Under the pieces are notes generated by a model. The model made no database searches. It had not been told where the DNA came from and was given only the letters and a program-made list of their open reading frames with translations. DNA of 64,000 nucleotides from Candidatus Aegiribacteria sp. (GTDB taxonomy: Bacteria > Fermentibacterota > Fermentibacteria > Fermentibacterales > JCC-6). Made by a program: the position numbers and the translations under genes. Shown one piece after another: positions 2,890-39,727 of this stretch (position 1 is its first letter; every line of letters starts with the position of its first letter). The DNA lies in contig WTBT01000012.1 in NCBI GenBank assembly GCA_013138965.1, positions 3,497-67,496 of the forward strand, given 5' to 3'.

Positions 2890-3160
2890 GCCGGCTGTGC
2901 TAGGCGGGGAGCTAGCGGTGCCCTGTACCCGCAATCCGCTACAGCGGGGCTGAAACATCTGTGCGGCAATGCGTAGCGAGTTTGCATTTATGTAAGTGGT
3001 GTTGATGACCAGGACCTGTGCGGCGTCAGCCCGTGAACCCCGTCAGAACCGGAAGGTAGCAGCGGTAAGCGATGTCTGGCGGGCGATGCAGGCCAACCTG
3101 ATCTGAGCTGGCTGCAGATTGCATCTCGTGAGGCTTGTCCAGCAGATATGTACGGCCGGC
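2890..3160 (+). ncRNA. ffs: Signal recognition particle RNA, long (Bacillus-type, Alu-domain-containing) form
   Basis: The 5' part (GGCTGTGCTAGGCGGGGAGCTAGCGGTGCCCTGTACCCGCAATCCGCT) nearly matches the B. subtilis scRNA Alu domain. The domain IV motif GTCAGAACCGGAAGGTAGCAGC matches the GGUCCGGAAGGAAGCAGC consensus. The 5' end CCGGCTGT pairs with the 3' end ACGGCCGG. The location immediately upstream of dnaX-ybaB-recR is the conserved one. Confidence 0.75.
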
Positions 3161-17762: not shown

Positions 17763-18991
17763 GCATTCTGGCCATAATCTTCGGGCTTGGTTTGATAGTG
17801 TTGTTTCACGAGATGGGACATCTTCTCATGTCCAAGGCTCTCGGCCTGGAAGTCCCGCGTTTTTCCATAGGGTTTCCTCCACATATTTTCAAAAGAAAAA
17901 TTGGCAGGACGGAGTACTGCATAGGACTGATACCCCTCGGAGGATACTGCAGAGTTAATCTTGGCACCACGGGCGAACCGGTTACGGGTGTCTCATGGTT
18001 CAGGCGAGTTCTTGTGGCTCTTGCCGGTCCCTTCGCCAACCTTGTACTCACAACGCTTATACTTATAACCATATTCGGTATTGTAGGTTGGGATATAGAT
18101 ATTGCTCCCGCGGTTGCGGGCAATGCTGACAACTCCCTCGGCCTGGGAGTGGGAGATACTGTTCTTTCCGTAAACGGTTATCCCGTCGCGGACTATTATG
18201 AGATGCTGGGCGCGATGTATTCCGCTACTCCTGGAACAATGACCGTGGGGACAGCTTCTGGAATACTTGAGATGAGTTACTCCCTGCCTGTGGAAACTGT
18301 TCCTTTTCATGCCCTGATACCTGTGGTGATAGGCGAAGCCATGATAGGATTTCCGGCTTACGAATCCGGGATAAGAGCCGGGGACAGCATAATTGCCATC
18401 GATGGAAGACCTGTTGCCATATGGTTTGATTTTCAATCTTTAGTAGCAGCAGGTACTAAAGAACTAGCAATTGAATTCTACAGAAACGGTGTTATTGATA
18501 CGGCTTATGTAACCCCCGGGGAGTACGACGGCAAAATTCTGACAGGTGTTACCGTTCAACTGCCATCGGAGAGGGTCAGGCTTCCGTTTTTCAAAGCCAT
18601 AGTTGAGGGAGTCAGATCCGCTGGTGAGGGTACTGCATACGTATGTACAACGCTGTTCAGGCTGTTCAAAAAACCCGCGGAGCTGGCCGAGAGTTCGGGA
18701 GGTCCCATTTATGTGGCCGAAACCCTGGGGCAACAGGCCAGATCGGGATTACCCAGTTACCTGTATACTATCGCAAGCATATCCATGGCGATAATGATTT
18801 TCAATCTTCTTCCGATACCGGTCCTTGACGGGGGACATGTTGTCATCCTTGTCATAGAGGGTATCAGGGGAAAACCCATTTCCAAGAAGAATGTTCAGAT
18901 AATCCAGCAGACCGGCATGATAATCATCCTGCTGATCTTCCTCCTGATAGTCTTCAAGGACATTTCCAGAGTAATAACCCGCGTACGATAG
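17756..18991 (+). CDS. rseP: Site-2 protease RseP (zinc metalloprotease of regulated intramembrane proteolysis)
   Basis: HEMGHLLMSK (HExxH) in the first TM, PDZ domain(s), and the LDG motif (NLLPIPVLDGGH) in the distal TM. It lies downstream of uppS-cdsA as in the conserved operon. Confidence 0.85.
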   Translation: MLSILAIIFGLGLIVLFHEMGHLLMSKALGLEVPRFSIGFPPHIFKRKIGRTEYCIGLIPLGGYCRVNLGTTGEPVTGVSWFRRVLVALAGPFANLVLTTLILITIFGIVGWDIDIAPAVAGNADNSLGLGVGDTVLSVNGYPVADYYEMLGAMYSATPGTMTVGTASGILEMSYSLPVETVPFHALIPVVIGEAMIGFPAYESGIRAGDSIIAIDGRPVAIWFDFQSLVAAGTKELAIEFYRNGVIDTAYVTPGEYDGKILTGVTVQLPSERVRLPFFKAIVEGVRSAGEGTAYVCTTLFRLFKKPAELAESSGGPIYVAETLGQQARSGLPSYLYTIASISMAIMIFNLLPIPVLDGGHVVILVIEGIRGKPISKKNVQIIQQTGMIIILLIFLLIVFKDISRVITRVR

Positions 18992-19021
18992 GGTCAGGTC
19001 TTGCATTTGAGCATTATTATC
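18991..19021 (+). repeat. Dispersed repeat copy (GGGTCAGGTCTTGCATTTGAGCATT + ATTATC), abutting the rseP TAG stop
   Basis: The 31-nt string is identical to 38127-38157. The first G is the last base of the TAG stop codon. Confidence 0.8.
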
Positions 19022-26335: not shown

Positions 26336-28510
26336 ATGAGCAAAGATCAAATGAATCCAAGACAGAGGGAGGCTGTAGATTATACAGGAGGCCCCCTTCT
26401 TATACTCGCAGGAGCCGGAAGCGGCAAAACCCGGGTTCTTACAGCCAAAATAGCGGACATTATTGAAAAAGGTTATGCGGAACCATGGGAGATTCTTGCC
26501 ATGACCTTCACGAATAAAGCTGCACAGGAAATGAGAGGGCGGGTTGAGAGCGTGCTTCCCGGAAGAGGCGGAAGGGTAAGATTGGGAACATTCCATTCCA
26601 TCTGTGCCTGGATTCTGAGACGTGAAGCCCACTACCTTGGGTACAATCAGAATTTTGTTATTTACGATGCGGATGATCAGAAAACTCTGATCAGAAGGCT
26701 TCTGAAGGGAATAAATTCATCAACGAAAATTACTCCCGGCCTTGCGAAGGGATACATCTCAAGGAGCAAGAACGAAGGTATTTCATCAGAGGAAGCGATG
26801 CTGCAGGCATCCGGTCAGAGCGAGATCGATCTTGCCGAAGTTTATCATAAATACCAGGAACGTTTGAAATCCTCCGGGGCGTTTGATTTTGACGATTTGT
26901 TGACGGGAGTCCTCGCTATATTTCGTCAAAATGATGACATAAGAAAACTCTATTCTTCCATGTTCTCATACATTCTGGTTGATGAATACCAGGATACTAA
27001 TAAAGTGCAGCATGAGCTTCTGAAAGAGCTTTCAAAGGGTGGTGCTGGGATATGTGTCGTAGGCGATGACGATCAGTCCATCTATGCATGGAGGGGTGCT
27101 TGTGTAGAGAACATTCTGGAATTTTCTGAGGATTTTCCGGGCACCAGGATCATCAGACTGGAAGAAAATTACAGATCCAGCGGAAATATTCTGCGGGGAG
27201 CATCCGCGTTGGTAAATCACAATAGAAAAAGACACGGTAAAACACTATGGACAAAACAGGACGCCGGACATCCGATAACTGTCAAATGCCTTTACAATGA
27301 AACCGAAGAGGCGGAATGGATACTGAATGAGATAGTCGAACTGATAGAAGACGGCTCATGTCCATCTGATTCAATTGCCGTGTTATACAGGACGAACGCA
27401 CAGTCACGTCAGTTCGAGACTGTATGCAGAAAGCATGGTGTGAATTACGAAGTTGTGGGATCCCAGAGATTCTATGAACGGATGGAAATCAAGGATATCA
27501 TCGCTTATCTGAGAGTTGTTATCAACCATGATGACCGTCTCAGTCTTGAGCGGATAATCAACAAACCCGCAAGGGGGCTTGGAGGGAAAGGGAGAGCATC
27601 CTTTTTTGCTTTCGTGGATTCGAAGGGAATGGATCCTGTGGACGCAATGCTTATTTCCGATAGTATCGGCGGTATTACTTCCAGAGCATCGAAGGAGCTT
27701 TCAAAACTTGGAGAATGGTTCAGACTGACCGGGGAAAATGCCGCGGGAGGTGTATCAGCTTCTGAAATAGTAGACAGTCTTATTGACAGTACAGGTTTAG
27801 CAGCACAGTACGATACAGAAGATATTACGGATCAATCACGCCTTGAAAATATCACGGAGTTCAGAAGAAGTGTATCGGAATACGATCAGGCCGTTCCGGG
27901 CGGAGACCTGCCGGGTTTCATGACGGACATCAGTCTGGCTACAACCGTTGACGAGTACGAGGGAGAGAACAGCGGTAAAGTTGCCCTCATGACTCTTCAT
28001 TGTGCCAAAGGCCTTGAATTCAACGTTGTTTTCATAGCAGGACTTGAGGAGGGCATGCTCCCTTTCATCAGGCCGGGTGAGTTCACGCCTTCCAATATGG
28101 AAGAAGAGAGAAGACTTCTTTATGTGGGGATGACAAGAGCCCGTGAAAGGCTGCTGCTGACATGCGCATTGAACAGAAAAAGAGCCGGAGTTGCGCAATC
28201 CGGCCCATCCAGGTTCATAGCTGAAATTGCAAGCGGGGAAAGCAGAATACAGCCTGTGAAAGACGCATTCTCTGCCAGAGCTGAGAAAGATGACTTCACA
28301 GATGCGAATGAAAATATTACTACTTACAGCAGCGGAAATCTTATAAGACATCCAAGGTATGGCATAGGACTTGTGAAAAAGGCCGTGAAAACAGGATCTG
28401 AATGGAGGATTACGGTTGATTTCGGATTTGATGAACCCAAGACACTGGTGACTGGATATGTACCTATTCCAATTTTAAAGCAGAAAGGTTCAATAAGAGA
28501 CCTTGATTGA
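26336..28510 (+). CDS. pcrA: ATP-dependent DNA helicase PcrA/UvrD family
   Basis: Walker A ([16 protein letters not shown]), DEYQDTN, YRS, and the motif VI region ([14 protein letters not shown]...VGMTRA). I chose the ATG at 26336 ([14 protein letters not shown]) over the longer upstream ORF. Confidence 0.9.
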
Positions 28511-28520
28511 AAGGGAGATT

Positions 28521-29156
28521 ATGCAACTGTTTCTTGATACCGCGAACGTTGATGACATTAAGGAGATCGCCGCCTGGGGCATACTGTCCGGAGTTACGAC
28601 GAATCCTTCGCTTATTGCCAGGGAGGGCAGGGATTTCAGAGAAGTTATCAACGAGATCTGTGATATAGTCGATGGCCCAATAAGCGCCGAGGTTATCAGT
28701 GTGGAGAGAGAAGGAATGATAAGAGAGGCCAGGGAAAAGGCCGAATGGCACGAGAATGTGGTAATCAAGATCCCCATGGGGAAAGAGGGCCTGGCAGCTG
28801 TGTCCATACTTGAAAAGGAGGGAATACGGTGTAACGTTACCCTCGTGTTTTCTGCTGCTCAGGGGTATACCGCAGCCCTTGCGGGTGCTTCCTTTGTCAG
28901 TCCCTTCGTGGGAAGGTTGGATGATATTGGAACTCCCGGCATGGAAGTTGTAGCAGATCTTGCCGAGATATATGACCTTCATGGATTCCAGACCATGATA
29001 ATCGCTGCCAGTATCAGACATACACAGCATGTTGAGCAGGCGGCGCTTGCCGGAGCTCATATCGCTACGGTTCCCACTGCAGTTGTAAGAAAGCTTGTGG
29101 AACATCCTCTGACTGATATCGGATTGGAGAAATTTCTTTCCGACTGGAATAAATAG
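28521..29156 (+). CDS. tal: Transaldolase (short Fsa/TalC-type)
   Basis: [15 protein letters not shown]...GVTTNPSL...KIP (Schiff-base Lys). About 212 aa. The alternative start at 28503 adds 6 aa. Confidence 0.85.
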
Positions 29157-29181
29157 TTTATTATTTTGATGAGGTTAATAA

Positions 29182-30003
29182 ATGCTAGATAATGCTCAAA
29201 TGCAAGACCTGGCCCTACTGGTTCGATTGGATGTGATCGAGATGATACGAGCTGCGGGAAGCGGCCATCCCGGCGGTTCGTTTTCATCGGTAGAGATTCT
29301 TGTGGAGCTTTACTGGAATGTGATGAATATTCGCCCTGAGGAACCTCGCTGGGAAGGGAGAGACAGATTCATTCTCTCCAAGGGTCACGCATGTCCCGCA
29401 TTGTACTCGGTTCTTGCCAGAAGGGGGTATTTCGATCCAACTGAACTTATGACTCTTAGAAAACTTGGATCCAGGCTTCAGGGGCATCCGAACATGCACG
29501 ATCTTCCCGGTCTGGATGCCTCCACTGGAAGCCTTGGACAGGGTCTCTCCATCGCGTGCGGAATTGCCCACGGAATAAGGCTGGATGACAGGAAAAGCCG
29601 TGTTTTCTGCCTGCTTGGTGATGGAGAGCTGCAGGAGGGAAGCATATGGGAAGCGGCAATGACCGCCTCCCATTACAATCTGAAACATCTTACAGCTATC
29701 GTGGACCGGAACCGCGTGCAGCTGGATGGACCGGTTTCGGAAGTAATGGAGATAGAACCTCTTGTTGACAAATGGCTCGCTTTCGGATGGGACGTGATAG
29801 TTGCCGAGGGACACAGTATCCCGTCTCTTGAAAAGGCTTTTGAGCACTGCGGAGAAGCCCCCTTCCCATCGGTTATCATCGCTGATACGGTGAAGGGAAA
29901 AGGTGTTTCATTCATGGAGAACACATGCCTCTGGCATGGCAGATGTCCGGATGAAGATGAATACGCGGCAGCTGTCAGAGAGATTCGGGAAGGCCTTTCA
30001 TGA
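29182..30003 (+). CDS. Transketolase, N-terminal (TPP-binding) subunit
   Basis: AGSGHPGGSFS, the TPP-binding GDGE motif (LLGDGELQEGSIWEA), 273 aa. A GAGG RBS lies 7 nt before the ATG at 29182. The alternative ATG at 29197 is inside the repeat. Confidence 0.85.
   Translation: MLDNAQMQDLALLVRLDVIEMIRAAGSGHPGGSFSSVEILVELYWNVMNIRPEEPRWEGRDRFILSKGHACPALYSVLARRGYFDPTELMTLRKLGSRLQGHPNMHDLPGLDASTGSLGQGLSIACGIAHGIRLDDRKSRVFCLLGDGELQEGSIWEAAMTASHYNLKHLTAIVDRNRVQLDGPVSEVMEIEPLVDKWLAFGWDVIVAEGHSIPSLEKAFEHCGEAPFPSVIIADTVKGKGVSFMENTCLWHGRCPDEDEYAAAVREIREGLS
29191..29215 (-). repeat. Dispersed repeat copy, reverse orientation (GGGCCAGGTCTTGCATTTGAGCATT, 1 mismatch), lying within codons 4-11 of the transketolase N-subunit ORF
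   Basis: Reverse complement of AATGCTCAAATGCAAGACCTGGCCC. It supplies the in-frame peptide NAQMQDLA. Confidence 0.75.
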
Positions 30004-30935
30004 ATAATCTCAAGGCAACGCGGGAAGGGTATGTTGAAGGGATACTGCAGGCCGGGCGAGAGAACAGCCGGGTAGTTGTTATCGAAGGAGATGTTTCCCG
30101 ATCCATCGGGAGCGCTTCATTCGGAGAGGAATTCCCCGACAGATTCTTCAACCTCGGAGTAAGCGAGCAGGATATGCTGGGCGAAGCAGCGGGTCTTGCC
30201 CTCGAGGGCTTCATACCATTTGTGGGAACGTACGGCGTATTTATAGCCGGGCGCGCATGGGATCAGATCAGGACAAGCGTCTGTTATATGAATCTTGATG
30301 TTCGAATCGCCGGAGCGCATGGCGGAGTAAGCGTAGGACCGGACGGGGCAACACATCAGGCCCTGGAGGATGTAGCCCTCATGCGGGTGCTCCCCAACAT
30401 GAAGATCCTCGTGCCTGCTGATTCCAATCAGACAAGAGCAGCAGTTCTCGCCTCCCTTGAAGCTGACGGCCCCGTTTACATCCGTTTCGGAAGAAATCCC
30501 GTTCCTCAGCTTTACACCGGCGATGAGAAGGTGAAGATCGGTCGTGGGAATCTGCTGAGAGAAGGTAATGACGTAACACTGGTCGCGTGTGGAGCCATGG
30601 TGAGTTTATCCATCGAGGCGGCATCCATTCTCAAGGTGAAAGGCATATCCGCAGGAGTCATCGACATGGTTTCGGTGAAACCTCTTGACAGGGAACTTCT
30701 TGTGGGACAGGTCGAAAAGACTGGAGCCGTTATCGTGGCGGAGGATCACCAGGCTGCAGGCGGTCTCTTCTGCGCAGTAGCAGAGACCCTTGCGCTTGAA
30801 ATGCCTGTTCCCATAGATATTGTTGCCATGCAGGACAGTTTTGGCGCCAGCGGGTCCCCGGCTGAAGTGAGGGAGATATTCGGGCTTACAGCATCTGCAA
30901 TAGTTGAAAAAGCAGAGAAGATCCTGCATCAGTAG
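30000..30935 (+). CDS. Transketolase, C-terminal (pyrimidine-binding) subunit
   Basis: 311 aa. It overlaps the N-subunit stop (ATGA). The Pyr-binding and C-terminal domains are like the split TktA/B of archaea and some bacteria. Confidence 0.85.
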   Translation: MNNLKATREGYVEGILQAGRENSRVVVIEGDVSRSIGSASFGEEFPDRFFNLGVSEQDMLGEAAGLALEGFIPFVGTYGVFIAGRAWDQIRTSVCYMNLDVRIAGAHGGVSVGPDGATHQALEDVALMRVLPNMKILVPADSNQTRAAVLASLEADGPVYIRFGRNPVPQLYTGDEKVKIGRGNLLREGNDVTLVACGAMVSLSIEAASILKVKGISAGVIDMVSVKPLDRELLVGQVEKTGAVIVAEDHQAAGGLFCAVAETLALEMPVPIDIVAMQDSFGASGSPAEVREIFGLTASAIVEKAEKILHQ

Positions 30936-31060: not shown

Positions 31061-31969
31061 ATGGCGCGAGTACTTATATGTGACCCGGTTGCCCAGGATG
31101 CTATTGAAGCTATCCGCAAAGGCGGCCATGAAGTAGTCGAGAAAACAGGCATGTCAGTTGAAGAACTGATGGAGACCGCACCGCAGTTCGACGCTCTGGT
31201 CGTGCGCGGCGCGACAAAGGTCAGAAAGCCCGTCCTTGAAAAGGCGGCCAGGGGAAATCTTAAACTGATAGTCCGCGGTGGAGTAGGGCTTGATAACATC
31301 GATCTTGATGACGCTGCTGAACTCGGTATATCGGTCAGGAATACTCCTGCCGCAAGCAGCGTTGCCGTCGCCGAGCTTGCAATGGCTCATTTGCTGGCGT
31401 GCAGCCGCTTTCTTGGTCCTGCGAACTGCACCATGAAAAAAGGTGAGTGGAACAAGAAAGCGTACGGCAAGGGCAAAGAGCTCTGGAATTCAACGCTTGG
31501 TTTAATTGGATTCGGACGCATTTCAAAGGAAGTGGCCAAAAGGGCGAAGGCATTCGGGATGAAAATTATTTTCTTCGATCCCTTTATCGATGACGAAGAA
31601 GGTGCGCAAAAAGTAGATCTTGATACCCTGTGCAGGGAATCCGATTTCATAAGCCTTCACATTCCCCACAATACAGAAACCCATTACCTTCTGGACGCTC
31701 CTCAGTTCGACATGATGAAGGACGGAGTGATCGTAGTGAACTGCGCCAGGGGAGGCACGGTTAACGAAACCGCCCTTCTGGAAGCCATGAAATCCGGCAA
31801 GGTATTCGCCGCGGGAGTTGACGTTTACGAAGAGGAACCAGCCAAAGGAAATGTTCTTGCGGAATTCGAAATGACCGTGGCCACTCCTCATATCGGGGCA
31901 GGAAGCGCCGCCGCCTCGAAGCGTGTGGGCGCTGAAGTTGCCCGTACGATTAACGAATTTTTCGAGTAA
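31061..31969 (+). CDS. D-isomer-specific 2-hydroxyacid dehydrogenase (short-form D-3-phosphoglycerate dehydrogenase-like)
   Basis: NAD-binding GLIGFGRISKEVAKRAKAFGMK, catalytic region (NCARGG...D...H). 302 aa. A GGAGG RBS precedes the start. Confidence 0.8.
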   Translation: MARVLICDPVAQDAIEAIRKGGHEVVEKTGMSVEELMETAPQFDALVVRGATKVRKPVLEKAARGNLKLIVRGGVGLDNIDLDDAAELGISVRNTPAASSVAVAELAMAHLLACSRFLGPANCTMKKGEWNKKAYGKGKELWNSTLGLIGFGRISKEVAKRAKAFGMKIIFFDPFIDDEEGAQKVDLDTLCRESDFISLHIPHNTETHYLLDAPQFDMMKDGVIVVNCARGGTVNETALLEAMKSGKVFAAGVDVYEEEPAKGNVLAEFEMTVATPHIGAGSAAASKRVGAEVARTINEFFE

Positions 31970-31987
31970 AAGTATAAGATCATACAA

Positions 31988-33262
31988 TTGAAAGGTGGAT
32001 CCATGCGGAAAAACTGGATAGGTATTCCAGCCCTCATGATTCTCCTTCTGCTGCCTGCTTTGTCAGTTGCCCGGGGTGATGACGAAATATTGACACCGGT
32101 AGCAGAAGAACAGCTGGCGGAACCCGATCCCGGACTTGATGTGTCTGGCACAGTCACTGTGCAGGATAAGGATAACGATGCCGGAGACCTGCTGCTGGTC
32201 TCTTTCGAGTTGCCGGCAGATACCGAAGGTATCTTTGCCTACAATGTCTACAGGCGTGTTGCCGGTGAAGAGGGTGAAGGCTCCTGGAACCTGGTAGAGA
32301 TTATCCCCGCGGATGGGCTGTCGGAATTCATCGATGGTTACGATCCCGAGTATCCGATAGCGTCGGGAGTTCTGTACGAATACAGAATTGCGTCCGCAAC
32401 CGTTGATGGCGAAGAGTTCTTCGGCCCCGAGTGCGAGGCCGGAGTTGTCTCAAAAGGTGAAATCTACCATACCGGTAAAACAAAGATATTTATCGCCAGT
32501 ATTCTCTTCATAGGCCTTATCTTCTACTACTTCGGAAAAGCTCAAAAGGGCATAGAGATGTACATGCGGCCCATCGCCGGGATAGAGGCCATCGATGAGG
32601 CTATCGGCCGCGCCACCGAGATGGGGAAACCCGTGCTTTACGTCCCCGGGATCTCCAGCATCGCCGATGTGGCAACCATCGCAAGCCTTACCATTCTGGG
32701 AAGGGTGGCCAAGAAAATAGCTCTGTATCAGACGCCGCTTATTGTACCCAACCGTGATCCTATCGTATTTACGGTAGCCGAGGAAGTGGTTAAACAGGCG
32801 TACCTAGAAGCCGGACGTCCCGACGCGTACGATCCGGATTCGGTCTTCTTTGTCACCACCAGCCAGTTCGCTTACGTCGCGGCAGTCAACGGCATTATGA
32901 TGAGGGAAAAACCGGCCACCAATTTCTACCTTGGAATGTTCTATGCCGAATCGCTGCTGCTTGCCGAGACCGGTTCCCTTTCAGGAGCCATCCAGATAGC
33001 CGGAACCGATGCCGTGACCCAGCTGCCCTTCTTCATAACCACATGTGATTACACACTTATAGGTGAGGAACTTTATGCAGCCAGCGCGTACCTTGGCCGG
33101 GAGCCCAAACAGATAGGCGCCTTGAAGGGCCAGGATGCCTGCAAGGCAATAATAATGACTTTCATTACCGTTGCTCTGATATTCGGTGTAATTGATGTTG
33201 TAGCAAACACTCACATCCTGGACTGGTTTCGTGATCTTGTAACCAGTCCGATTGTAGATTAA
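31988..33262 (+). CDS. Uncharacterised membrane protein (gene 1 of a 4-gene operon)
   Basis: 424 aa. Signal peptide, then a beta-sandwich-like ectodomain of about 140 aa, a TM helix (IFIASILFIGLIFYYFG), a domain of about 230 aa and a C-terminal TM (AIIMTFITVALIFGVIDVV). I recognise no family. Confidence 0.5.
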   Translation: MKGGSMRKNWIGIPALMILLLLPALSVARGDDEILTPVAEEQLAEPDPGLDVSGTVTVQDKDNDAGDLLLVSFELPADTEGIFAYNVYRRVAGEEGEGSWNLVEIIPADGLSEFIDGYDPEYPIASGVLYEYRIASATVDGEEFFGPECEAGVVSKGEIYHTGKTKIFIASILFIGLIFYYFGKAQKGIEMYMRPIAGIEAIDEAIGRATEMGKPVLYVPGISSIADVATIASLTILGRVAKKIALYQTPLIVPNRDPIVFTVAEEVVKQAYLEAGRPDAYDPDSVFFVTTSQFAYVAAVNGIMMREKPATNFYLGMFYAESLLLAETGSLSGAIQIAGTDAVTQLPFFITTCDYTLIGEELYAASAYLGREPKQIGALKGQDACKAIIMTFITVALIFGVIDVVANTHILDWFRDLVTSPIVD

Positions 33263-33286
33263 GCCCACCGGAAGGGAGAAAGAACA

Positions 33287-33931
33287 GTGAAAAGAACTGT
33301 TCCGCTTATGATTGTAATGGTGGGCGGAATACTGATGATCCTGCAGTATTTCATTCCACACCAGATATCGCAGACCGTACTCGCATACTATACGGACTGG
33401 GCTCCAATAATTCTTGCGTTCGCGCTGGTACTTGGAGTCGGAAGTCTCACAAGAATTCATTCACACAAGATACGGAGGAAGGCGAAGAACTGGCAGTACA
33501 GCTATGCTGTTCTGATACCATTGTTCGGGATGCCTATCCTGGCGCACATATGGCCCGCATCCCTCAGCGGGGGGATGGATTCGCCCAGTATTTTCCATTT
33601 CCTCTTCATGCATGTGCAGGTTCCCATACAGGCAACCATGTTCAGCCTGCTGGCCTTTTACATCGCAAGTGCCGCTTTCAGGGCGTTCAGGGCTAAATCG
33701 GCGCTTGCCACACTGCTGCTGCTTGCGGCAGTGGTTGTAATGCTGGGTCAGGTGCCTATCGGAGAACTGTTCGGCAGATGGCTGCCGGAAACGGGGCTCT
33801 GGATTCTGCGTTACCCGAACCTTGCGGCCAAACGGGCCATAATGCTGGGTGTCGGGTTCGGTATGCTGGCAACAAACTTAAAAATAATATTCGGAGTCGA
33901 GCGCAACTGGCTCGGCGGAGCAGGGAAGTAG
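33287..33931 (+). CDS. Uncharacterised polytopic membrane protein (gene 2 of the operon)
   Basis: 214 aa with about 6 predicted TM helices. No family recognised. Confidence 0.5.
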   Translation: MKRTVPLMIVMVGGILMILQYFIPHQISQTVLAYYTDWAPIILAFALVLGVGSLTRIHSHKIRRKAKNWQYSYAVLIPLFGMPILAHIWPASLSGGMDSPSIFHFLFMHVQVPIQATMFSLLAFYIASAAFRAFRAKSALATLLLLAAVVVMLGQVPIGELFGRWLPETGLWILRYPNLAAKRAIMLGVGFGMLATNLKIIFGVERNWLGGAGK

Positions 33932-34933
33932 GTGAGTGCCGTGAATATCTGGGAAAGAATGCTCAACATAGACCGGCGCTGGATCTTCCTTGGAATAGGG
34001 ATAGTGTCAATAGTACCGTTCTTCATCAACTTCGGAATGCCTGTAAGAACTACCATTGAAGTCGAGAGTATTTACGATTACGTCGATGAACTGGGCTCCG
34101 AAAACGCAATCTTCATCAGTTTCGATTTTGCCCCCGGTACACAGGCGGAGAACATGCCCATGGCAGTGGCTGTTATGCGCCACGCGTTTTATAACGATGT
34201 TCCGGTGTTCATGACCGCGAACTGGCCTCTGCATCATGGAATGATGCTTGCCGCTATGGAGTATGTATTCAATCCGACTACGGAAGGATTTTATCAGGAT
34301 ATTGACTTCGATGACTGGAGGGAGCTTCGAGAAGCGGGCGTTACAGCCAAAGGCGACCTGGTTGATGCCTGGGAGAGCCAGGGGAACCAGCTTCCGGATG
34401 GAGCGATGGGCTGGGTTTTCGAGGGCAGGGATTACGCGGCTCTGGGGTACGCTCCGGTCTTCAACCTCGTGATACTGGGAATGACCATCTCAATAGAAAC
34501 GCAGTACCCTATCGACGCGCATGAAAATGCCCTTGGAGAGATGCCTATGCTCCAGGAACACAAGAGTCTCAGGGAAGTGGACCTGACTCTTACCTGTTCA
34601 GGCTCCGCTGCCTGCGAATGGTGGATCACATACGCTCGGGAGAAGATAGGGATGCCCGTGGCTTTCGGCGTTACAGCCGTCAGCGCTACGGATTACTTCC
34701 CGTACCTGCAGACGGGACAGGTGATAGGCCAGATGGGAGGCCTGCGGGGCGCCGCCGAGTACGAGGTGCTTCTGGCCGAGAATGGTATTACATCCTCCAC
34801 CGATAAGGCTTTCACCGGGATGGATGTCCAGTCAGTAGCACACATCCTCATAATTCTACTCATCATCATGGGTAACATCGCGTTCTTCGCGGGTGGTTTT
34901 CACAAGAAGGCACTGCTTAAGGAAGGGAGGTAG
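33932..34933 (+). CDS. Uncharacterised bitopic membrane protein (gene 3 of the operon)
   Basis: 333 aa. N-terminal TM (WIFLGIGIVSIVPFFINF), a soluble domain of about 270 aa and a C-terminal TM (VAHILIILLIIMGNIAFFAG). The start abuts the gene 2 stop. Confidence 0.5.
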   Translation: MSAVNIWERMLNIDRRWIFLGIGIVSIVPFFINFGMPVRTTIEVESIYDYVDELGSENAIFISFDFAPGTQAENMPMAVAVMRHAFYNDVPVFMTANWPLHHGMMLAAMEYVFNPTTEGFYQDIDFDDWRELREAGVTAKGDLVDAWESQGNQLPDGAMGWVFEGRDYAALGYAPVFNLVILGMTISIETQYPIDAHENALGEMPMLQEHKSLREVDLTLTCSGSAACEWWITYAREKIGMPVAFGVTAVSATDYFPYLQTGQVIGQMGGLRGAAEYEVLLAENGITSSTDKAFTGMDVQSVAHILIILLIIMGNIAFFAGGFHKKALLKEGR

Positions 34934-34936
34934 GAA

Positions 34937-35566
34937 ATGTATGAGACTATAGGCATCTGGGTAGGCGCGATTTTTACGCTTGCCATCTACTCTTTCCTTT
35001 ACAAGGAGAATTCCATCTACAGGCTTGCGGAGCATCTGGTGGTGGGCATATCAGCGGGATATGGAATGGCCATCACATACCAGATAACCATAAAGCCGAG
35101 ACTCGTAGATCCCCTCCTGAGCGGAGACCACTGGATACTGCTCATTCCGGGAATACTGGGATTACTGTACATAACAAGGTTCATTCCGCGGATATCCTGG
35201 ATGTCCAGATATCCCATAGGCTTCTACATGGGAACGGCCATGGGTGTTGGTTTTCCGCTTACCATGAAGGCGAGAGTGCTTCGCCAGCTGGAAGGCGCCA
35301 TGGTGCCCCTTTACCAGTCGGGCATGGCCTGGTACGAGGTGACAGGTAACGTGGTGATGATCCTTGGAACCCTTGCGGCTCTGATCTACTTCTTCTTCTC
35401 CAAACCGCACAAGGGGCTGTTCTTCGGTACTGGTTCAAAGATCGGTATCTGGGTGATCATGGTCGGTTTTGGCGCTACTTTCGGTTTTACCGTAATGGGC
35501 CGTATCAGTCTGCTCATCGGCAGAATACAGTACCTGTTGGGAGACTGGTTGCATGTTATAGAGTAG
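34937..35566 (+). CDS. Uncharacterised polytopic membrane protein (gene 4 of the operon)
   Basis: 209 aa with about 6 TM helices. It starts 4 nt after the gene 3 stop and has an AGGGAGG RBS. Confidence 0.5.
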   Translation: MYETIGIWVGAIFTLAIYSFLYKENSIYRLAEHLVVGISAGYGMAITYQITIKPRLVDPLLSGDHWILLIPGILGLLYITRFIPRISWMSRYPIGFYMGTAMGVGFPLTMKARVLRQLEGAMVPLYQSGMAWYEVTGNVVMILGTLAALIYFFFSKPHKGLFFGTGSKIGIWVIMVGFGATFGFTVMGRISLLIGRIQYLLGDWLHVIE

Positions 35567-35573
35567 CATGAAA

Positions 35574-35701
35574 GGGTCAGGTCTTGCATTCGAGCGTTTG
35601 AAATTGAAACAAAAGTGACAATGTGAAGGGGTCAGGTCTTGCATTCGAGCATTTGAAATTGAAACAAAAGTGACTAATGCTCAAATGCAAGACCTGACCC
35701 C
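35574..35701 (+). repeat. Composite repeat. Two direct units (GGGTCAGGTCTTGCATTCGAGCRTT + TGAAATTGAAACAAAAGTGAC) are followed by an inverted copy. This forms a 26-bp stem (1 mismatch) with a 22-nt loop.
   Basis: Direct units start at 35574 and 35628. The inverted arm is at 35676-35701 (AATGCTCAAATGCAAGACCTGACCCC). It is followed by the short repeats CCACTCATG / CCACTCGTG / CCACTCATG. Confidence 0.8.
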
Positions 35702-35791
35702 ACTCATGTGACCCCACTCGTGACCCCCACTCATGCCCCCATTTCACAGCTTGACCTTTTGAATCTGTTTTCGTAAATTGGCTCGAACGGT

Positions 35792-35867
<76 letters not shown>

Positions 35868-37115: not shown

Positions 37116-37558
37116 ATATAGTTACAATGAAGAAGAGCGATTATGAAGAGTTGCTGGCGTTGTGGAGCGGCTTTACCGGTAATACCATGACCGGTGCCGA
37201 CAGCAGGGGGGATTTTGAGAAGTTTCTGAGCAGGAACTCTGATTACTGTTTTTCAGCATTTGAAAATGCTCGTCTTGTCGGATCTGTAATGGCCGGTAAC
37301 GATTCAAGAAGAGGATATATCTACCATCTGGCAGTGGATAACTCACTTCAGGCGAAAGGAACAGGCAGGAAGCTCATGGATGCCGCTGAAAATGCGTTGA
37401 GAGATGCCGGGATAGAGAAAGCCCACCTGTTCATATACACTGATAATACCGCGATAAAGTTCTACGAAAAAACCGGCTGGCACAGTCGCAGCGATATAAC
37501 GGTTATGAGCAAGGTGCTGATAGGGGATAAATACGTGGGCACCCGCATGGAGGAGTGA
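37112..37558 (+). CDS. GNAT family N-acetyltransferase
   Basis: Acetyl-CoA binding motif (LAVDNSLQAKGTGRKLM). 148 aa. It overlaps the GT4 stop. Confidence 0.7.
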   Translation: MNIVTMKKSDYEELLALWSGFTGNTMTGADSRGDFEKFLSRNSDYCFSAFENARLVGSVMAGNDSRRGYIYHLAVDNSLQAKGTGRKLMDAAENALRDAGIEKAHLFIYTDNTAIKFYEKTGWHSRSDITVMSKVLIGDKYVGTRMEE

Positions 37559-37659
37559 TGAACTTCCTTTTTTGTTTTCCAGCTGGCATGATAAGCCATT
37601 GAAGTATTATCCTCAGAACAATTGATGTAGAAACCGAGGGATAATGGTTTCTGGAGGGG

Positions 37660-38127
37660 TTGGCTGATTTGCCTGATCTCCTGGTCCCGTTGTACGATCT
37701 GCCCGGTAACCCGGAACAGGATGGTCTGTGGGTGGGAAAACCGCTCTCTCACCAAGCGCCCTCCGTGCTTTCATTCATCCATGACAATTTCAGCAGCGGC
37801 TGGAAGGCTGAAGCCGGGGCCGCCTTTGGATCCGTGCCACCCACAATAATCGTTGCCGCAGATTGCGCATCCGGCAGACTCGCCGGTTTCTGCTGCTGGG
37901 ACTGTACTGCAAAGGGGTTTCTGGGACCAATAGGTGTGCACGATGACTTTCGCGGAAAAGGTGTCGGAAAAGCTGTTGTGATCGCAGCGCTTCACAGTAT
38001 GAGGGAGGCTGGTTACGGTTACGCTGTAATAGGTGCCGCGGGACCTGTTGAATTCTTCCGGAGGATATGCGACGCCAGAGTCATTGAAGACAGTACCCCG
38101 GGAATATACGGCAACCCAATAAAGTAG
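37660..38127 (+). CDS. GNAT family N-acetyltransferase
   Basis: GVHDDFRGKGVGKAVVIAAL motif A. 155 aa. Its TAG stop is fused to a repeat copy. Confidence 0.6.
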   Translation: MADLPDLLVPLYDLPGNPEQDGLWVGKPLSHQAPSVLSFIHDNFSSGWKAEAGAAFGSVPPTIIVAADCASGRLAGFCCWDCTAKGFLGPIGVHDDFRGKGVGKAVVIAALHSMREAGYGYAVIGAAGPVEFFRRICDARVIEDSTPGIYGNPIK

Positions 38128-38157
38128 GGTCAGGTCTTGCATTTGAGCATTATTATC
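38127..38157 (+). repeat. Dispersed repeat copy (identical 31-mer to 18991-19021), abutting the GNAT gene TAG stop
   Basis: GGGTCAGGTCTTGCATTTGAGCATTATTATC, followed by a low-GC stretch of about 150 nt. Confidence 0.8.
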
Positions 38158-38308: not shown

Positions 38309-39727
38309 CTACCAGGACCAGATTACTTCAAGGAATGATGAGAATTCCGAGGAAGATTCACCCGAAACATGCTTTCGGTTCCTTATCCATTTATTTCCGA
38401 CTTCTCCGTGAATTTCAAGAAAATCAAGAGGATACCATCCGAGGTGCAGTTCCGCGCCGGTAATGTACTCAATGGTTCCTGAAGGGAAAGTGCCGCTGGT
38501 AGAGGCCGAGTCAGGCCAGCCCTCCTGAACGGTTCCCTCTCCATGTCTTGTGTGATCCAGGGTGATCTCGCCCAGAACTGGCCAGGCGGCTGACGTTCCA
38601 AAGGACAGTGTTACCCTGTCGGCGTCAGGCCCCAGACCCGAGCCGATTATATCTCCATGATGCAGGTAGTAATTACATGGTCTTCGCTGGCCGTAAACGT
38701 ACCTGTCAATTCTGGTGTATTCGATCACTGTTCCCAGATCAAGCGAGTTGATGTAAGCGGACAATCCTGCCGTCCAGCCGAGCTTGTTGGGCCTGTTGCC
38801 TGTATTCTCGTACTGTATATCATCGATAAGGAGTTCGCCGTAGGTTTCAATACCTTTGAAAGGTTTCCATGATACATCGAAGCTGAAAAACGCGTTGTCA
38901 TCCACCCGTTCGTTCCACTGCACGGGGTACCAGGGAATGACAGGGTTCATGTACGCGAAATCCAGCCCTTCCGATTTGAAGAGAATGGATTCACAGAGGC
39001 CTATTCGAAGGTTTTCCCGCGGAGAAATATCCAGCCTGTGAGCTGTAAGGTACGTTCCTGAATCGCTGTCGACCGTGGATGTGAATCCTGTGAAAGTAAG
39101 CATGTTCCACAGGTTGAACTGGACTTTCAGCATATCAAGAGGGGGACTGTTATCCGAGATCAGAAGCTGAGTAAACCTGCCTGGCCCCCATCTCTGGGGT
39201 ATTCTCCCGAAACTGAGCGAAAAGGTTTCGTTATTCCAGCGGAGATAGCCCCAATCCACGTAGAGGTGCCTTCCTCTTTCCAGACCCTCGTGGTAGGGAG
39301 AGAAATAGTCGGGTGGATTCTCGTCGGAACCTGTCCAGATCGAGAGCCTTTCGTCGAGACACAGCCCGGGAAGAATATCGACAAAAAGCCTGGCTGTGGC
39401 TCCGATTCTGGTCTCGAAACTGTTGGAGTAATTGAGCGCCTCCCCGGCAATCGTTCCTGTCAGTAAGAATGCAGGGCTTTCCTGCCAGGATCCAATTGGG
39501 GATGAGCTTCTGCTGAAAAGGAATTTCTCGATACTTCCCAGGGAACCTGTCGATGAATTCTCGTCATTAAGAAAGTGGGAATCCACAAGTGGAAACGTTC
39601 CGGGAAGCATGGCTTCCGATTCAGTCTCCAGCATGTAAAGCCACCAGTTGAGAGGATCCTGAAGGGGCAGTCCAGCCTGCTGACCTGCTCCTATCAATAG
39701 TCCCGCCGCCAGTACAGCTACCGTCAT
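38309..39727 (-). CDS. Hypothetical secreted/outer-membrane beta-rich protein
   Basis: 472 aa. Signal peptide (MTVAVLAAGLLIGAG), a high content of aromatics and Gly, and a C-terminal ...VIWSW typical of an OM beta-barrel. Confidence 0.4.
   Translation of the reverse strand: MTVAVLAAGLLIGAGQQAGLPLQDPLNWWLYMLETESEAMLPGTFPLVDSHFLNDENSSTGSLGSIEKFLFSRSSSPIGSWQESPAFLLTGTIAGEALNYSNSFETRIGATARLFVDILPGLCLDERLSIWTGSDENPPDYFSPYHEGLERGRHLYVDWGYLRWNNETFSLSFGRIPQRWGPGRFTQLLISDNSPPLDMLKVQFNLWNMLTFTGFTSTVDSDSGTYLTAHRLDISPRENLRIGLCESILFKSEGLDFAYMNPVIPWYPVQWNERVDDNAFFSFDVSWKPFKGIETYGELLIDDIQYENTGNRPNKLGWTAGLSAYINSLDLGTVIEYTRIDRYVYGQRRPCNYYLHHGDIIGSGLGPDADRVTLSFGTSAAWPVLGEITLDHTRHGEGTVQEGWPDSASTSGTFPSGTIEYITGAELHLGWYPLDFLEIHGEVGNKWIRNRKHVSGESSSEFSSFLEVIWSW

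What the first reader, a model, noticed from the sequence alone, without database searches (positions are those of the whole stretch)
31988..35566. Four-gene operon of unrecognisable membrane proteins (signal peptide + ectodomain bitopic, two 6-TM proteins, one two-TM protein with a large soluble domain): candidate undescribed membrane complex
The genes are tightly packed with 4-25 nt spacers and good RBSs, all on the same strand, between a dehydrogenase gene and the repeat cluster with tRNA-Phe. None of the four products matches a family I can recognise. There is no ATPase, no transporter signature and no secretion-system motif. The architecture alternates bitopic proteins with large extracytoplasmic domains and small polytopic proteins. 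It resembles an envelope-spanning machine or sensor complex more than a metabolic operon.
Basis: seen in the sequence. Interest (0 to 1): 0.7.

Follow-up and report, generated by a model that had tools for sequence, protein, structure and literature searches.

The report
Conserved four-gene membrane complex, function unknown
These four tightly packed genes encode a real membrane-protein set that is kept together in the same order in hundreds of mostly uncultured bacterial species, matches no known machine, and has no known function.

Summary
The four genes are real and probably form one operon in a Candidatus Aegiribacteria (Fermentibacteria) genome. The coordinates need two small corrections: A is 32003-33262 and C is probably 33941-34933.

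The order A-B-C-D is fixed in 114 complete quartets from 86 loci. These come from at least ten named lineages: Fermentibacteria, Ignavibacteria, Zixibacteria, WOR-3, Stahlbacteria, Cloacimonadota, Eisenbacteria, Latescibacteria, Edwardsbacteria and Poribacteria. The quartet often occurs in two or three tandem copies. At least 596 species genomes carry the A family.

Neighbouring genes differ by lineage, so this is a self-contained module and not a genomic island.

Periplasmic parts vary (extra FN3 domains, beta-propeller insertions), while cytoplasmic and membrane parts are conserved. I found no paper that mentions DUF6754. My best guess, at low confidence, is a translocation or transduction machine driven by an ion gradient and not by ATP.

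The parts
32003..33262 (+). Gene A (419 aa; the mechanical ORF starts at TTG 31988). It consists of a signal peptide, an FN3 ectodomain, a TM helix, a DUF6754 domain and a C-terminal TM helix.
   Evidence: ORF. Start codon and RBS. 100% identical to P0001, a 419-aa hypothetical protein of Candidatus Aegiribacteria. Pfam DUF6754, E 4e-115.
32003..32071 (+). Predicted signal peptide of A (MRKNWIGIPALMILLLLPALSVA, with an AxA-like cleavage site).
   Evidence: Hydrophobic segment aa 8-31. Homologues share a ...AxAQ site. Cleavage is inferred and was not tested with a dedicated predictor.
32120..32437 (+). FN3-like ectodomain of A (about aa 45-150 in ORF numbering). This is the variable part of the family.
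   Evidence: The family profile matches titin FN3 domains in the PDB, E 1e-14. Some homologues are named 'fibronectin type III domain-containing'. The ectodomain grows to about 700 aa in Cloacimonadota.
32453..33208 (+). DUF6754 region of A (aa 156-407). It runs TM helix (aa 164-186), then a conserved domain of about 195 aa predicted to be cytoplasmic, then a C-terminal TM helix (aa 386-407).
   Evidence: Pfam hit covers aa 156-407. More than 100 invariant columns in a cross-phylum alignment, including GRATEMGKP, AESLLLAETG and QLPFFxTxCDYTLxGEELYAASAYL. Lys/Arg bias places the domain inside and the C-terminal tail outside. The structure prediction failed (pLDDT 48).
33287..33931 (+). Gene B (214 aa). 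Six-TM protein with N- and C-termini inside. In other lineages the periplasmic loop between TM3 and TM4 carries inserted domains.
   Evidence: ORF. Family-averaged hydrophobicity and alternating Lys/Arg counts. 2247 cluster representatives at E<=1e-3. Insertions at query position 95-100 are FG-GAP or WD40 beta-propellers. No Pfam, NCBIfam or PDB match.
33941..34933 (+). Gene C (330 aa; the mechanical ORF starts at GTG 33932). It runs N-terminal TM helix, Rossmann-like alpha/beta domain predicted to be periplasmic, then C-terminal TM helix carrying conserved Gln300, His304 and Asn315.
34937..35566 (+). Gene D (209 aa). Polytopic protein with 5-6 TM helices. Conserved motifs are LYKDNPFYKFAEHL, YFFFSKEHKG and GFGASFGYTVMAR.
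   Evidence: ORF. 4800 homologues, all unnamed and without Pfam domains. Conservation. Topology is ambiguous.
31061..31969 (+). Context, not part of the complex: a D-2-hydroxyacid dehydrogenase gene 33 nt upstream of A. It may be co-transcribed. This adjacency is conserved only within Fermentibacteria.
   Evidence: Pfam 2-Hacid_dh and 2-Hacid_dh_C. The same neighbour lies 8-33 nt upstream of A in L007-L011.
35569..35704 (.). Context: a cluster of a short dispersed repeat directly after D, with two direct 51-nt copies and one inverted copy.
   Evidence: The 22-mer occurs six times in the window, with none expected by chance.
35792..35867 (+). Context: tRNA-Phe (GAA).
   Evidence: It is also downstream of D in the relatives L009-L011.

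Best explanation
The four genes encode the subunits of one self-contained complex in the cytoplasmic membrane. I call it the 'DUF6754 quartet'.

Shown by the evidence:
- The four unrelated families are inherited together in a fixed order with overlapping or near-overlapping genes. This implies an obligate assembly in roughly equal amounts.
- Together they supply about 15-16 TM helices.

Predicted or inferred, not shown:
- One Rossmann-like domain (in C) and the FN3 domain (in A) are predicted to lie on the periplasmic side. The AF2 model supports the fold of the C domain (pLDDT 90). Its placement rests on Lys/Arg bias, and the FN3 placement assumes the signal peptide is cleaved.
- One very highly conserved domain (DUF6754, in A) is predicted to lie on the cytoplasmic side, again from Lys/Arg bias and signal-peptide logic.

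Inferred mechanism:
- The conserved core consists of DUF6754, the B and D helices with their positively charged loops, and the polar residues Gln/His/Asn in the second TM helix of C. This core does the same job in every lineage.
- The periplasmic parts differ by lineage and by paralogue: one to many FN3 domains on A, beta-propellers inserted in B, and a variable insert in C. They would adapt the machine to different periplasmic or envelope partners or cargo.
- No NTPase and no redox-cofactor motif belongs to the module. The most likely energy source is therefore the ion gradient.
- I think the most likely job is moving something across the membrane, or passing a conformational change across it. 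The cargo could be a nutrient or an envelope or periplasmic macromolecule. The complex would not be an enzyme of central metabolism.

Confidence that this is a genuine, conserved, obligate four-subunit membrane module is about 0.85. Confidence in the transporter or transducer mechanism is about 0.35, and that is the figure given below.
For: - Fixed A-B-C-D order on one strand in 114 complete quartets from 86 loci. No ORF was hit by more than one family query.
- Named lineages include Fermentibacteria, Ignavibacteria, Zixibacteria, WOR-3, Stahlbacteria, Cloacimonadota, Eisenbacteria, Latescibacteria, Edwardsbacteria and Poribacteria. At least 596 species genomes carry the A family.
- Distant high-G+C metagenome contigs keep the same order.
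- The four families show no detectable homology to one another.
- Gene spacing is 0-24 nt.
- The conserved cytoplasmic side and variable periplasmic side are shown.
- Two or three tandem paralogous quartets occur, paralogues at the same array position cluster together across loci, and close relatives have an orphan A paralogue.
- No ATPase, transporter, redox or defence family hit was found.
- Neighbouring genes differ by lineage, so the quartet is the conserved unit.
Against: - No biochemical, structural or expression evidence bears on function.
- Only C could be modelled with confidence. A's DUF6754 model failed (pLDDT 48).
- No HHpred-grade remote-homology search was possible, so a very divergent link to a known superfamily is not excluded.
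- FN3 and beta-propeller ectodomains are unusual for small-solute transporters. They fit envelope-contact or macromolecule-handling functions better.
- The very strong conservation and many invariant charged residues of DUF6754 would also fit a membrane-tethered enzyme.
- In 12 loci a GlmL-like ATPase of the ASKHA superfamily (actin, Hsp70 and sugar-kinase fold) lies upstream together with a 375-aa protein. In about half of these loci the last gene lies less than 70 nt from A. ATP-dependence in some lineages therefore cannot be excluded.
Confidence: 0.35

Rival explanations
1. It is an ion-driven motor or energy transducer that powers a process in the periplasm or outer membrane. It would work like TolQRA, ExbBD-TonB, MotAB or GldLM. 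Ion flow through the B/D/C helices would drive conformational change in the FN3 and propeller ectodomains that reach into the envelope.
For: - The periplasmic modules are protein- or glycan-interaction domains: FN3, FG-GAP and WD40/PD40-like propellers.
- The second TM helix of C carries conserved polar residues Gln300, His304 and Asn315.
- The module contains no ATPase.
- All named carriers belong to phyla that are diderm, to my knowledge; cell envelopes were not examined here.
- Several paralogous copies per genome is also seen for stator systems. That comparison rests on my own knowledge.
Against: - No match to the MotA_ExbB, ExbD or TolR families.
- Subunit architecture differs: two proteins of about six TM helices each, plus two proteins each anchored by two TM helices.
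- No invariant acidic residue was seen in a TM core.
- No outer-membrane partner is conserved nearby.
Confidence: 0.2
2. It is a membrane-bound enzyme complex. The conserved cytoplasmic DUF6754 domain would be the catalytic subunit, acting on a lipid-linked or envelope precursor. B, C and D would flip, polymerise or modify that precursor on the periplasmic side.
For: - DUF6754 has very many invariant polar and charged positions: Arg208, Thr210, Glu211, Lys269, Asn301, Arg306, Glu321, Glu327, Cys353, Asp354, Glu360 and Glu361. This level of conservation is typical of active sites.
- Pfam bit scores stay at 380-415 across phyla.
- The C domain is Rossmann-like, and conserved acidic and aromatic residues lie near the ends of predicted strands.
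- C's topology of TM helix, periplasmic domain, TM helix recalls polysaccharide co-polymerases. That comparison rests on my own knowledge.
Against: - No nucleotide-binding or glycosyl- or phospho-transferase signature was found.
- No polysaccharide or lipid biosynthesis genes are consistently adjacent.
- The glycosyltransferase downstream in the window lies beyond the tRNA gene and is specific to the Fermentibacteria lineage.
Confidence: 0.15
3. It is a cofactor-free relative or analogue of an Rnf/Na+-NQR-type ion pump. The subunit pattern matches loosely: two six-TM subunits of about 200 aa (like NqrD/E), one subunit with a periplasmic domain (like NqrC), one with a cytoplasmic domain (like NqrF), and in some lineages an NqrA_N-like soluble protein upstream.
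For: - The architectural parallel comes together with my own knowledge of NQR subunits.
- The 375-aa upstream protein in 12 loci has weak RnfC_N and NqrA_N barrel-sandwich hits (E 2e-4 and 2e-3, both below Pfam's cutoffs).
- Neighbours are energy- and carbon-metabolism genes: pyruvate phosphate dikinase (PPDK), ADP-forming acetyl-CoA synthetase, and the glycine-cleavage P protein GcvP.
Against: - No Rnf-Nqr, NQR2_RnfD_RnfE or FMN_bind Pfam hits in the window proteins, nor among 61 B, 50 D and 66 C family members.
- B, C and D have no conserved Cys or His clusters.
- B and D are not homologous to each other.
- The window has no NqrA_N-like gene.
Confidence: 0.07
4. It is a transmembrane sensor or signalling complex. 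The variable periplasmic sensor modules would report to the conserved cytoplasmic DUF6754 domain.
For: - Variable outside and conserved inside is the pattern of receptors.
- Genomes carry several paralogues.
Against: - No kinase, cyclase, HAMP, PAS or receiver domain, and no regulator gene conserved nearby.
- About 60% identity across phyla and twelve extra TM helices are atypical for sensors.
- Neighbours are housekeeping metabolic genes.
Confidence: 0.08

Closest known systems
Pfam DUF6754 (PF20539), a domain of unknown function
   Same: A is a clear member: E 4e-115, with 252 of 257 profile positions matched. All listed homologues carry the domain.
   Different: The family has no assigned function, and no paper in the searched library mentions it. 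Pfam covers only A. The partner families B, C and D have no Pfam or NCBIfam model. I found no paper describing the four-gene module; the targeted searches were few.
Na+-NQR / Rnf ion-pumping complexes (NqrC, D, E, F and NqrA)
   Same: The subunit pattern is loosely similar, judged from my own knowledge of NQR. There are two small six-TM subunits, one subunit with a periplasmic domain and one with a cytoplasmic domain. In 12 loci the upstream protein has a weak NqrA_N/RnfC_N-like hit.
   Different: No sequence match to any Rnf or Nqr family. No flavin or Fe-S motifs. No counterpart of NqrB. B and D are unrelated to each other.
ABC importers and ABC-2/Gld-type transporters
   Same: Two different membrane subunits of about 210 aa with about six TM helices each, plus a membrane-tethered alpha/beta periplasmic domain. 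The best Foldseek hits for C were sugar-binding proteins, but weakly (E 6e-4, TM-score about 0.2).
   Different: No ABC ATPase in or next to the module. No ABC-2, BPD_transp or binding-protein Pfam hit. Instead there is the TM-anchored DUF6754 domain.
Ion-driven stator complexes (TolQR-TolA, ExbBD-TonB, MotAB, GldLM)
   Same: These are inner-membrane complexes without an ATPase that carry extended or variable periplasmic parts and occur as several paralogues per genome. This comparison rests on my own knowledge.
   Different: No MotA_ExbB, ExbD or GldL/M family match. TM-helix counts and domain types differ.
Polysaccharide co-polymerases (Wzz/Wzc), compared with subunit C only
   Same: The topology is the same: N-terminus inside, TM helix, large periplasmic domain, TM helix, C-terminus inside.
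   Different: The C domain is a compact Rossmann-like alpha/beta/alpha sandwich and not a long helical hairpin. No Wzz Pfam hit.

Membership tests
Pfam DUF6754 (PF20539) | Match to the family HMM above the gathering score (27 bits). | tested here: met
   A scores 383.8 bits, E 4.1e-115, over aa 156-407.
Fibronectin type III domain | Sequence-profile match to FN3 domains. | tested here: met
   The A-family profile matches titin FN3 at E 1e-14 over positions 45-140. The single window sequence did not reach the Pfam fn3 threshold. Longer homologues do hit Pfam fn3, at E about 4e-7.
ABC transporter (including the ABC-2/GldF-GldG type) | An ABC ATPase subunit with Walker A/B and signature motifs, encoded with the permeases. 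| tested here: not met
   No ABC_tran hit in any of the four proteins. No ATPase gene is conserved next to the quartet in 86 loci.
ABC transporter (including the ABC-2/GldF-GldG type) | Permease subunits matching ABC-2, BPD_transp or FtsX-type families. | tested here: not met
   No consistent hit among 61 B and 50 D family members. The only matches were scattered and weak.
Na+-NQR / Rnf | Subunits matching the Rnf-Nqr (NqrD/E, RnfA/E), NQR2_RnfD_RnfE and FMN_bind families. | tested here: not met
   No such Pfam hits at E<=1 for the window proteins, nor among the family members scanned.
Na+-NQR / Rnf | Conserved cysteines in the small six-TM subunits and covalent-FMN motifs. | tested here: not met
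   No invariant or near-invariant Cys in the B or D alignments.
MotAB / ExbBD / TolQR / GldLM stators | MotA_ExbB-type channel subunit plus an ExbD/TolR/MotB-type subunit with a conserved acidic residue in its TM helix. | tested here: not met
   No family hits. No invariant Asp or Glu in a TM core in the alignments.
Periplasmic solute-binding protein fold (for the C domain) | Two alpha/beta lobes that superpose on solved binding proteins with a significant score. | tested here: inconclusive
Genomic island or mobile element | Atypical composition, insertion at a tRNA with flanking repeats, patchy presence in close relatives, and mobility genes. | tested here: not met
   G+C is 0.51-0.52, like the rest of the window. 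The same order of dehydrogenase, A-B-C-D, then tRNA-Phe occurs in related Fermentibacteria. No relatives in viral contigs. The repeat near the tRNA is a short element dispersed through the window.
Known anti-phage defence systems (PADLOC) | Match to a defence-system protein model. | tested here: not met
   No hits at E<=0.1.

The most novel reading that the evidence does not exclude
The DUF6754 quartet is a previously undescribed class of multi-subunit cytoplasmic-membrane machine. It would be built from four protein families unrelated to any characterised transporter, motor or respiratory complex. It would be a core feature of many uncultured phyla of the Fibrobacterota-Chlorobiota-Bacteroidota (FCB) group, with up to three or four paralogous copies per genome. 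It would couple an ion gradient to translocation or mechanical work through exchangeable periplasmic modules.
Probability: 0.45. Interest if true: 0.85.

Novelty: categorically new. Interest (0 to 1): 0.68.

Why it matters
A four-subunit membrane module with cross-phylum conservation at about the level of core machinery has no known function. Between phyla, the DUF6754 domain is about 60% identical and B and D are about 45% identical.

It is present in at least 596 species-level genomes and thousands of metagenomic protein clusters. A 2.3-Mb WOR-3 chromosome holds four or more A-family copies, at least three of them complete quartets. Most carriers are uncultured anaerobes of sediments, digesters and groundwater (Fermentibacteria, Zixibacteria, WOR-3, Cloacimonadota, Ignavibacteria and others), whose physiology is inferred almost entirely from annotation.

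If the module is a transporter or an energy transducer, current metabolic reconstructions of these phyla miss a major membrane function. Three of the four families are not in Pfam at all. Defining them would therefore annotate thousands of 'hypothetical proteins' and give structural biology a concrete and probably new target.

Tried and rejected
**Paralogy inside the operon (A with C, B with D).** BLASTP and hhalign, with full-length and domain-trimmed profiles and several settings, gave no signal (probability 5% or less). By eye, the beta-alpha pattern of DUF6754 resembled that of C. No statistic supports this and I do not claim it.

**Structure of the DUF6754 domain.** AF2 with 62 sequences gave pLDDT 48. 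The alignment was too shallow (73-92% identity) and the model was discarded.

**Sequence searches.**
- PDB profile searches for B and D found nothing. For C they gave only noise, and for A only FN3.
- Scanning every family member on its own against Pfam gave scattered weak hits only.
- NCBIfam and PADLOC found nothing.

**Conserved partner genes.**
- Pyruvate phosphate dikinase (PPDK) and ADP-forming acetyl-CoA synthetase follow the triple arrays in 9-12 loci.
- A GlmL-like ATPase and a 375-aa protein precede the quartet in 12 loci.
- Transketolase and a 2-hydroxyacid dehydrogenase precede it in Fermentibacteria.
- None of these is general, so none is treated as part of the module.
- The 375-aa protein has only sub-threshold barrel-sandwich hits and no PDB relative.

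**Other checks.**
- No riboswitch or leader RNA upstream, in the window or in 8 loci.
- Island or phage origin was rejected.
- Four literature searches found nothing relevant.
- The large Cloacimonadota ectodomain and the long B and D variants gave no further domain assignments.

Full report
**1. What is in the sequence**

Four ORFs lie on the + strand between 31988 and 35566:
- A: 31988-33262
- B: 33287-33931
- C: 33932-34933
- D: 34937-35566

Reading the DNA gives two corrections. A starts at ATG 32003, five bases after AAGGTGGA. This makes a 419-aa product identical to P0001, a hypothetical protein of a Candidatus Aegiribacteria MAG. C most likely starts at GTG 33941, giving 330 aa, because homologues begin MNIWEKML.

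The gaps between genes are 24, 0-9 and 3 nt. No convincing terminator lies inside the operon. The D-2-hydroxyacid dehydrogenase gene upstream ends only 33 nt before A. The window comes from a member of Fermentibacteria (formerly Hyd24-12).

**2. The four proteins**

*Protein A*
- It has a signal peptide followed by an FN3 domain. The family profile matches titin FN3 at E 1e-14.
- A TM helix follows at aa 164-186.
- Next comes a domain of about 195 aa and a C-terminal TM helix. Together these form Pfam DUF6754 (E 4e-115).
- Lys/Arg bias and signal-peptide logic place the DUF6754 domain in the cytoplasm and the short C-terminal tail outside.
- The domain is remarkably conserved. A 15-sequence cross-phylum alignment has more than 100 invariant columns. 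These include GRATEMGKP, AESLLLAETG and QLPFFxTxCDYTLxGEELYAASAYL.
- Pfam scores stay at 380-415 bits in all lineages examined.

*Protein B*
- It is a clear six-TM protein with both termini inside.

*Protein C*
- It was modelled with confidence: pLDDT 90, pTM 0.87.
- It has an N-terminal TM helix, an alpha/beta/alpha domain at aa 42-283, and a C-terminal TM helix.
- Charge bias puts both termini inside, so the domain is predicted to be periplasmic.
- Its second TM helix carries conserved Gln300, His304 and Asn315.

*Protein D*
- It has 5-6 hydrophobic segments and an ambiguous topology.
- Its most conserved motifs lie in or next to positively charged loops.

*Relationships among the four*
- The four families show no detectable homology to one another, by BLASTP or by profile-profile comparison.

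**3. Comparison with known families**
- B, C and D match nothing in Pfam or NCBIfam. This holds for the window proteins and for 61, 66 and 50 family members scanned one by one.
- PADLOC gives nothing.
- Profile searches of PDB sequences find nothing for B and D, noise for C, and only FN3 for A.
- The DUF6754 model failed (pLDDT 48).
- No paper in the library mentions DUF6754. Three further searches found nothing relevant.

**4. Conservation as a module**

*Family sizes*
- D has 4800 such clusters.
- C has 642.
- B has 2247 representatives at 50% identity.

*Synteny*
- Distant C homologues (37-40% identity) from high-G+C metagenome contigs sit in the same A-B-C-D order, and a second quartet follows them.
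- The best 80 loci come from Fermentibacteria, Ignavibacteria, Zixibacteria, WOR-3, Stahlbacteria, Cloacimonadota, Eisenbacteria, Latescibacteria, Edwardsbacteria and Poribacteria. A few MAGs are labelled Proteobacteria.
- Iterative HMM searches over all ORFs of the 86 loci gave 114 complete quartets, always in the order A-B-C-D on one strand. No ORF was claimed by two families.

*Copy number*
- Fifteen loci hold three tandem quartets and more than eleven hold two.
- Paralogues at the same array position cluster together across loci. The duplications are therefore old and the array order is conserved.
- A complete 2.3-Mb WOR-3 chromosome has two complete quartets followed by a third A and B at the end of one fetched locus, and a complete quartet at a second site.
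- Close relatives of the window organism also carry an orphan A paralogue a few kb downstream. The window lacks it.

**5. What varies and what does not**

The variable parts are all on the predicted periplasmic side:
- A's ectodomain ranges from one FN3 domain to about 700 aa in Cloacimonadota.
- Many B variants (300-630 aa) carry an insertion exactly in the TM3-TM4 loop. Where it can be recognised, it is an FG-GAP or WD40 beta-propeller.
- C has a variable insert (280 versus 333 aa). D varies between 200 and 280 aa.

The conserved parts are DUF6754, the positively charged loops of B and D, and the TM helices.

**6. Neighbourhood**

No neighbouring gene is general.
- In Fermentibacteria the quartet follows transaldolase, a split transketolase and the 2-hydroxyacid dehydrogenase, and it precedes tRNA-Phe.
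- In 12 loci labelled Zixibacteria or Ignavibacteriales, triple arrays are followed by a small basic protein and then pyruvate phosphate dikinase (PPDK). In 8 of them ADP-forming acetyl-CoA synthetase follows within the fetched sequence.
- In 12 loci a GlmL-like ATPase of the ASKHA superfamily (actin, Hsp70 and sugar-kinase fold) and a 375-aa protein lie upstream. The 375-aa protein has sub-threshold RnfC_N/NqrA_N barrel-sandwich hits. In about half of these loci it lies less than 70 nt from A.
- No riboswitch was found upstream.

The island idea is rejected for four reasons:
- Composition is normal.
- The tRNA-Phe adjacency is synteny within the lineage.
- The nearby repeat is a short element dispersed through the window.
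- No viral contig carries the family.

**7. Interpretation**

*Shown.* This is a self-contained, co-inherited set of four membrane proteins of unknown function. No match to a characterised family was found with the tools available here.

*Predicted, not shown.* The complex would have soluble domains on both faces of the membrane. This rests on Lys/Arg bias, signal-peptide logic and the AF2 model of C.

*Inferred.* The four proteins form one complex. A conserved cytoplasmic and intramembrane core is coupled to exchangeable periplasmic modules. No NTPase or redox motif belongs to the module, so I favour a translocation or transduction machine driven by an ion gradient.

*My rough weighting*

| Reading | Weight |
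|---|---|
| Transport or translocation | about 0.35 |
| Stator-like energy transduction to the envelope | about 0.2 |
| Membrane-bound enzyme with DUF6754 as the catalytic domain | about 0.15 |
| Sensor | about 0.08 |
| Cofactor-free analogue of Rnf/NQR | about 0.07 |

The FN3 and propeller modules argue for macromolecular or envelope partners over small solutes. The invariant charged residues of DUF6754 keep the enzyme reading alive.

**8. Verdict**

The module is catalogued only as a domain of unknown function for one of its four subunits. No literature on it was found in the searches run, and it is widespread in poorly known phyla.

Noticed in passing
window 35569-35704, 38123-38152, 18991-19012, 29194-29215: A short dispersed repeat with core GGGTCAGGTCTTGCATTCGAGC occurs six times in the window, with none expected by chance. 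Just after gene D there are two direct 51-nt copies and one inverted copy. It looks like a REP- or MITE-like intergenic element.
   Followed up: partly
L011 9510-10676 (also L009 from 15046 and L010 from 9501); corresponding window site 37558-37660: Close Fermentibacteria relatives carry an orphan 387-389-aa A paralogue (FN3-like region plus DUF6754) without B, C or D. In L011 it sits between the two GNAT acetyltransferase genes downstream of tRNA-Phe. In the window these two genes are only about 100 nt apart and the paralogue is absent.
   Followed up: partly
L012 12913-13230, L029 11970-12275, L045 12091-12453, L081 11785-12132: A small, very basic conserved protein of 100-120 aa (...AEARREYQRRYYQTHKEKAKEYQRLYNLTHKKK...) lies between the triple quartet arrays and the pyruvate phosphate dikinase (PPDK) gene in loci labelled Zixibacteria or Ignavibacteriales. 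Its function is unknown.
   Followed up: no
L015 1635-4592, L066 4826-7807, L047 4607-7622, L002 1-1594 and 8 further loci: A conserved gene pair lies directly upstream of the quartet in 12 loci. One gene encodes a GlmL-like ATPase of the ASKHA superfamily, about 600 aa (Pfam MutL, E 3e-129). The other encodes a 375-aa protein with no family assignment, only sub-threshold RnfC_N, NqrA_N and biotin-lipoyl barrel-sandwich hits. The pair may be a functional partner or merely a neighbour.
   Followed up: partly
window 2895-3155: Bacterial large SRP RNA (Rfam RF01854, 161.7 bits), next to tRNA-Ala at 1879-1954.
   Followed up: no
window 38309-39727 (minus strand): A 472-aa ORF that ends in ...FLEVIWSW is conserved at the same relative position in L011 (455 aa). 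From the C-terminal aromatic residue alone, it could be an outer-membrane beta-barrel. It was not analysed.
   Followed up: no
window 28503-30935: A transaldolase-like gene is followed by a transketolase split into separate N-terminal and C-terminal genes. These lie upstream of the dehydrogenase and the quartet. The arrangement is conserved in related Fermentibacteria.
   Followed up: no
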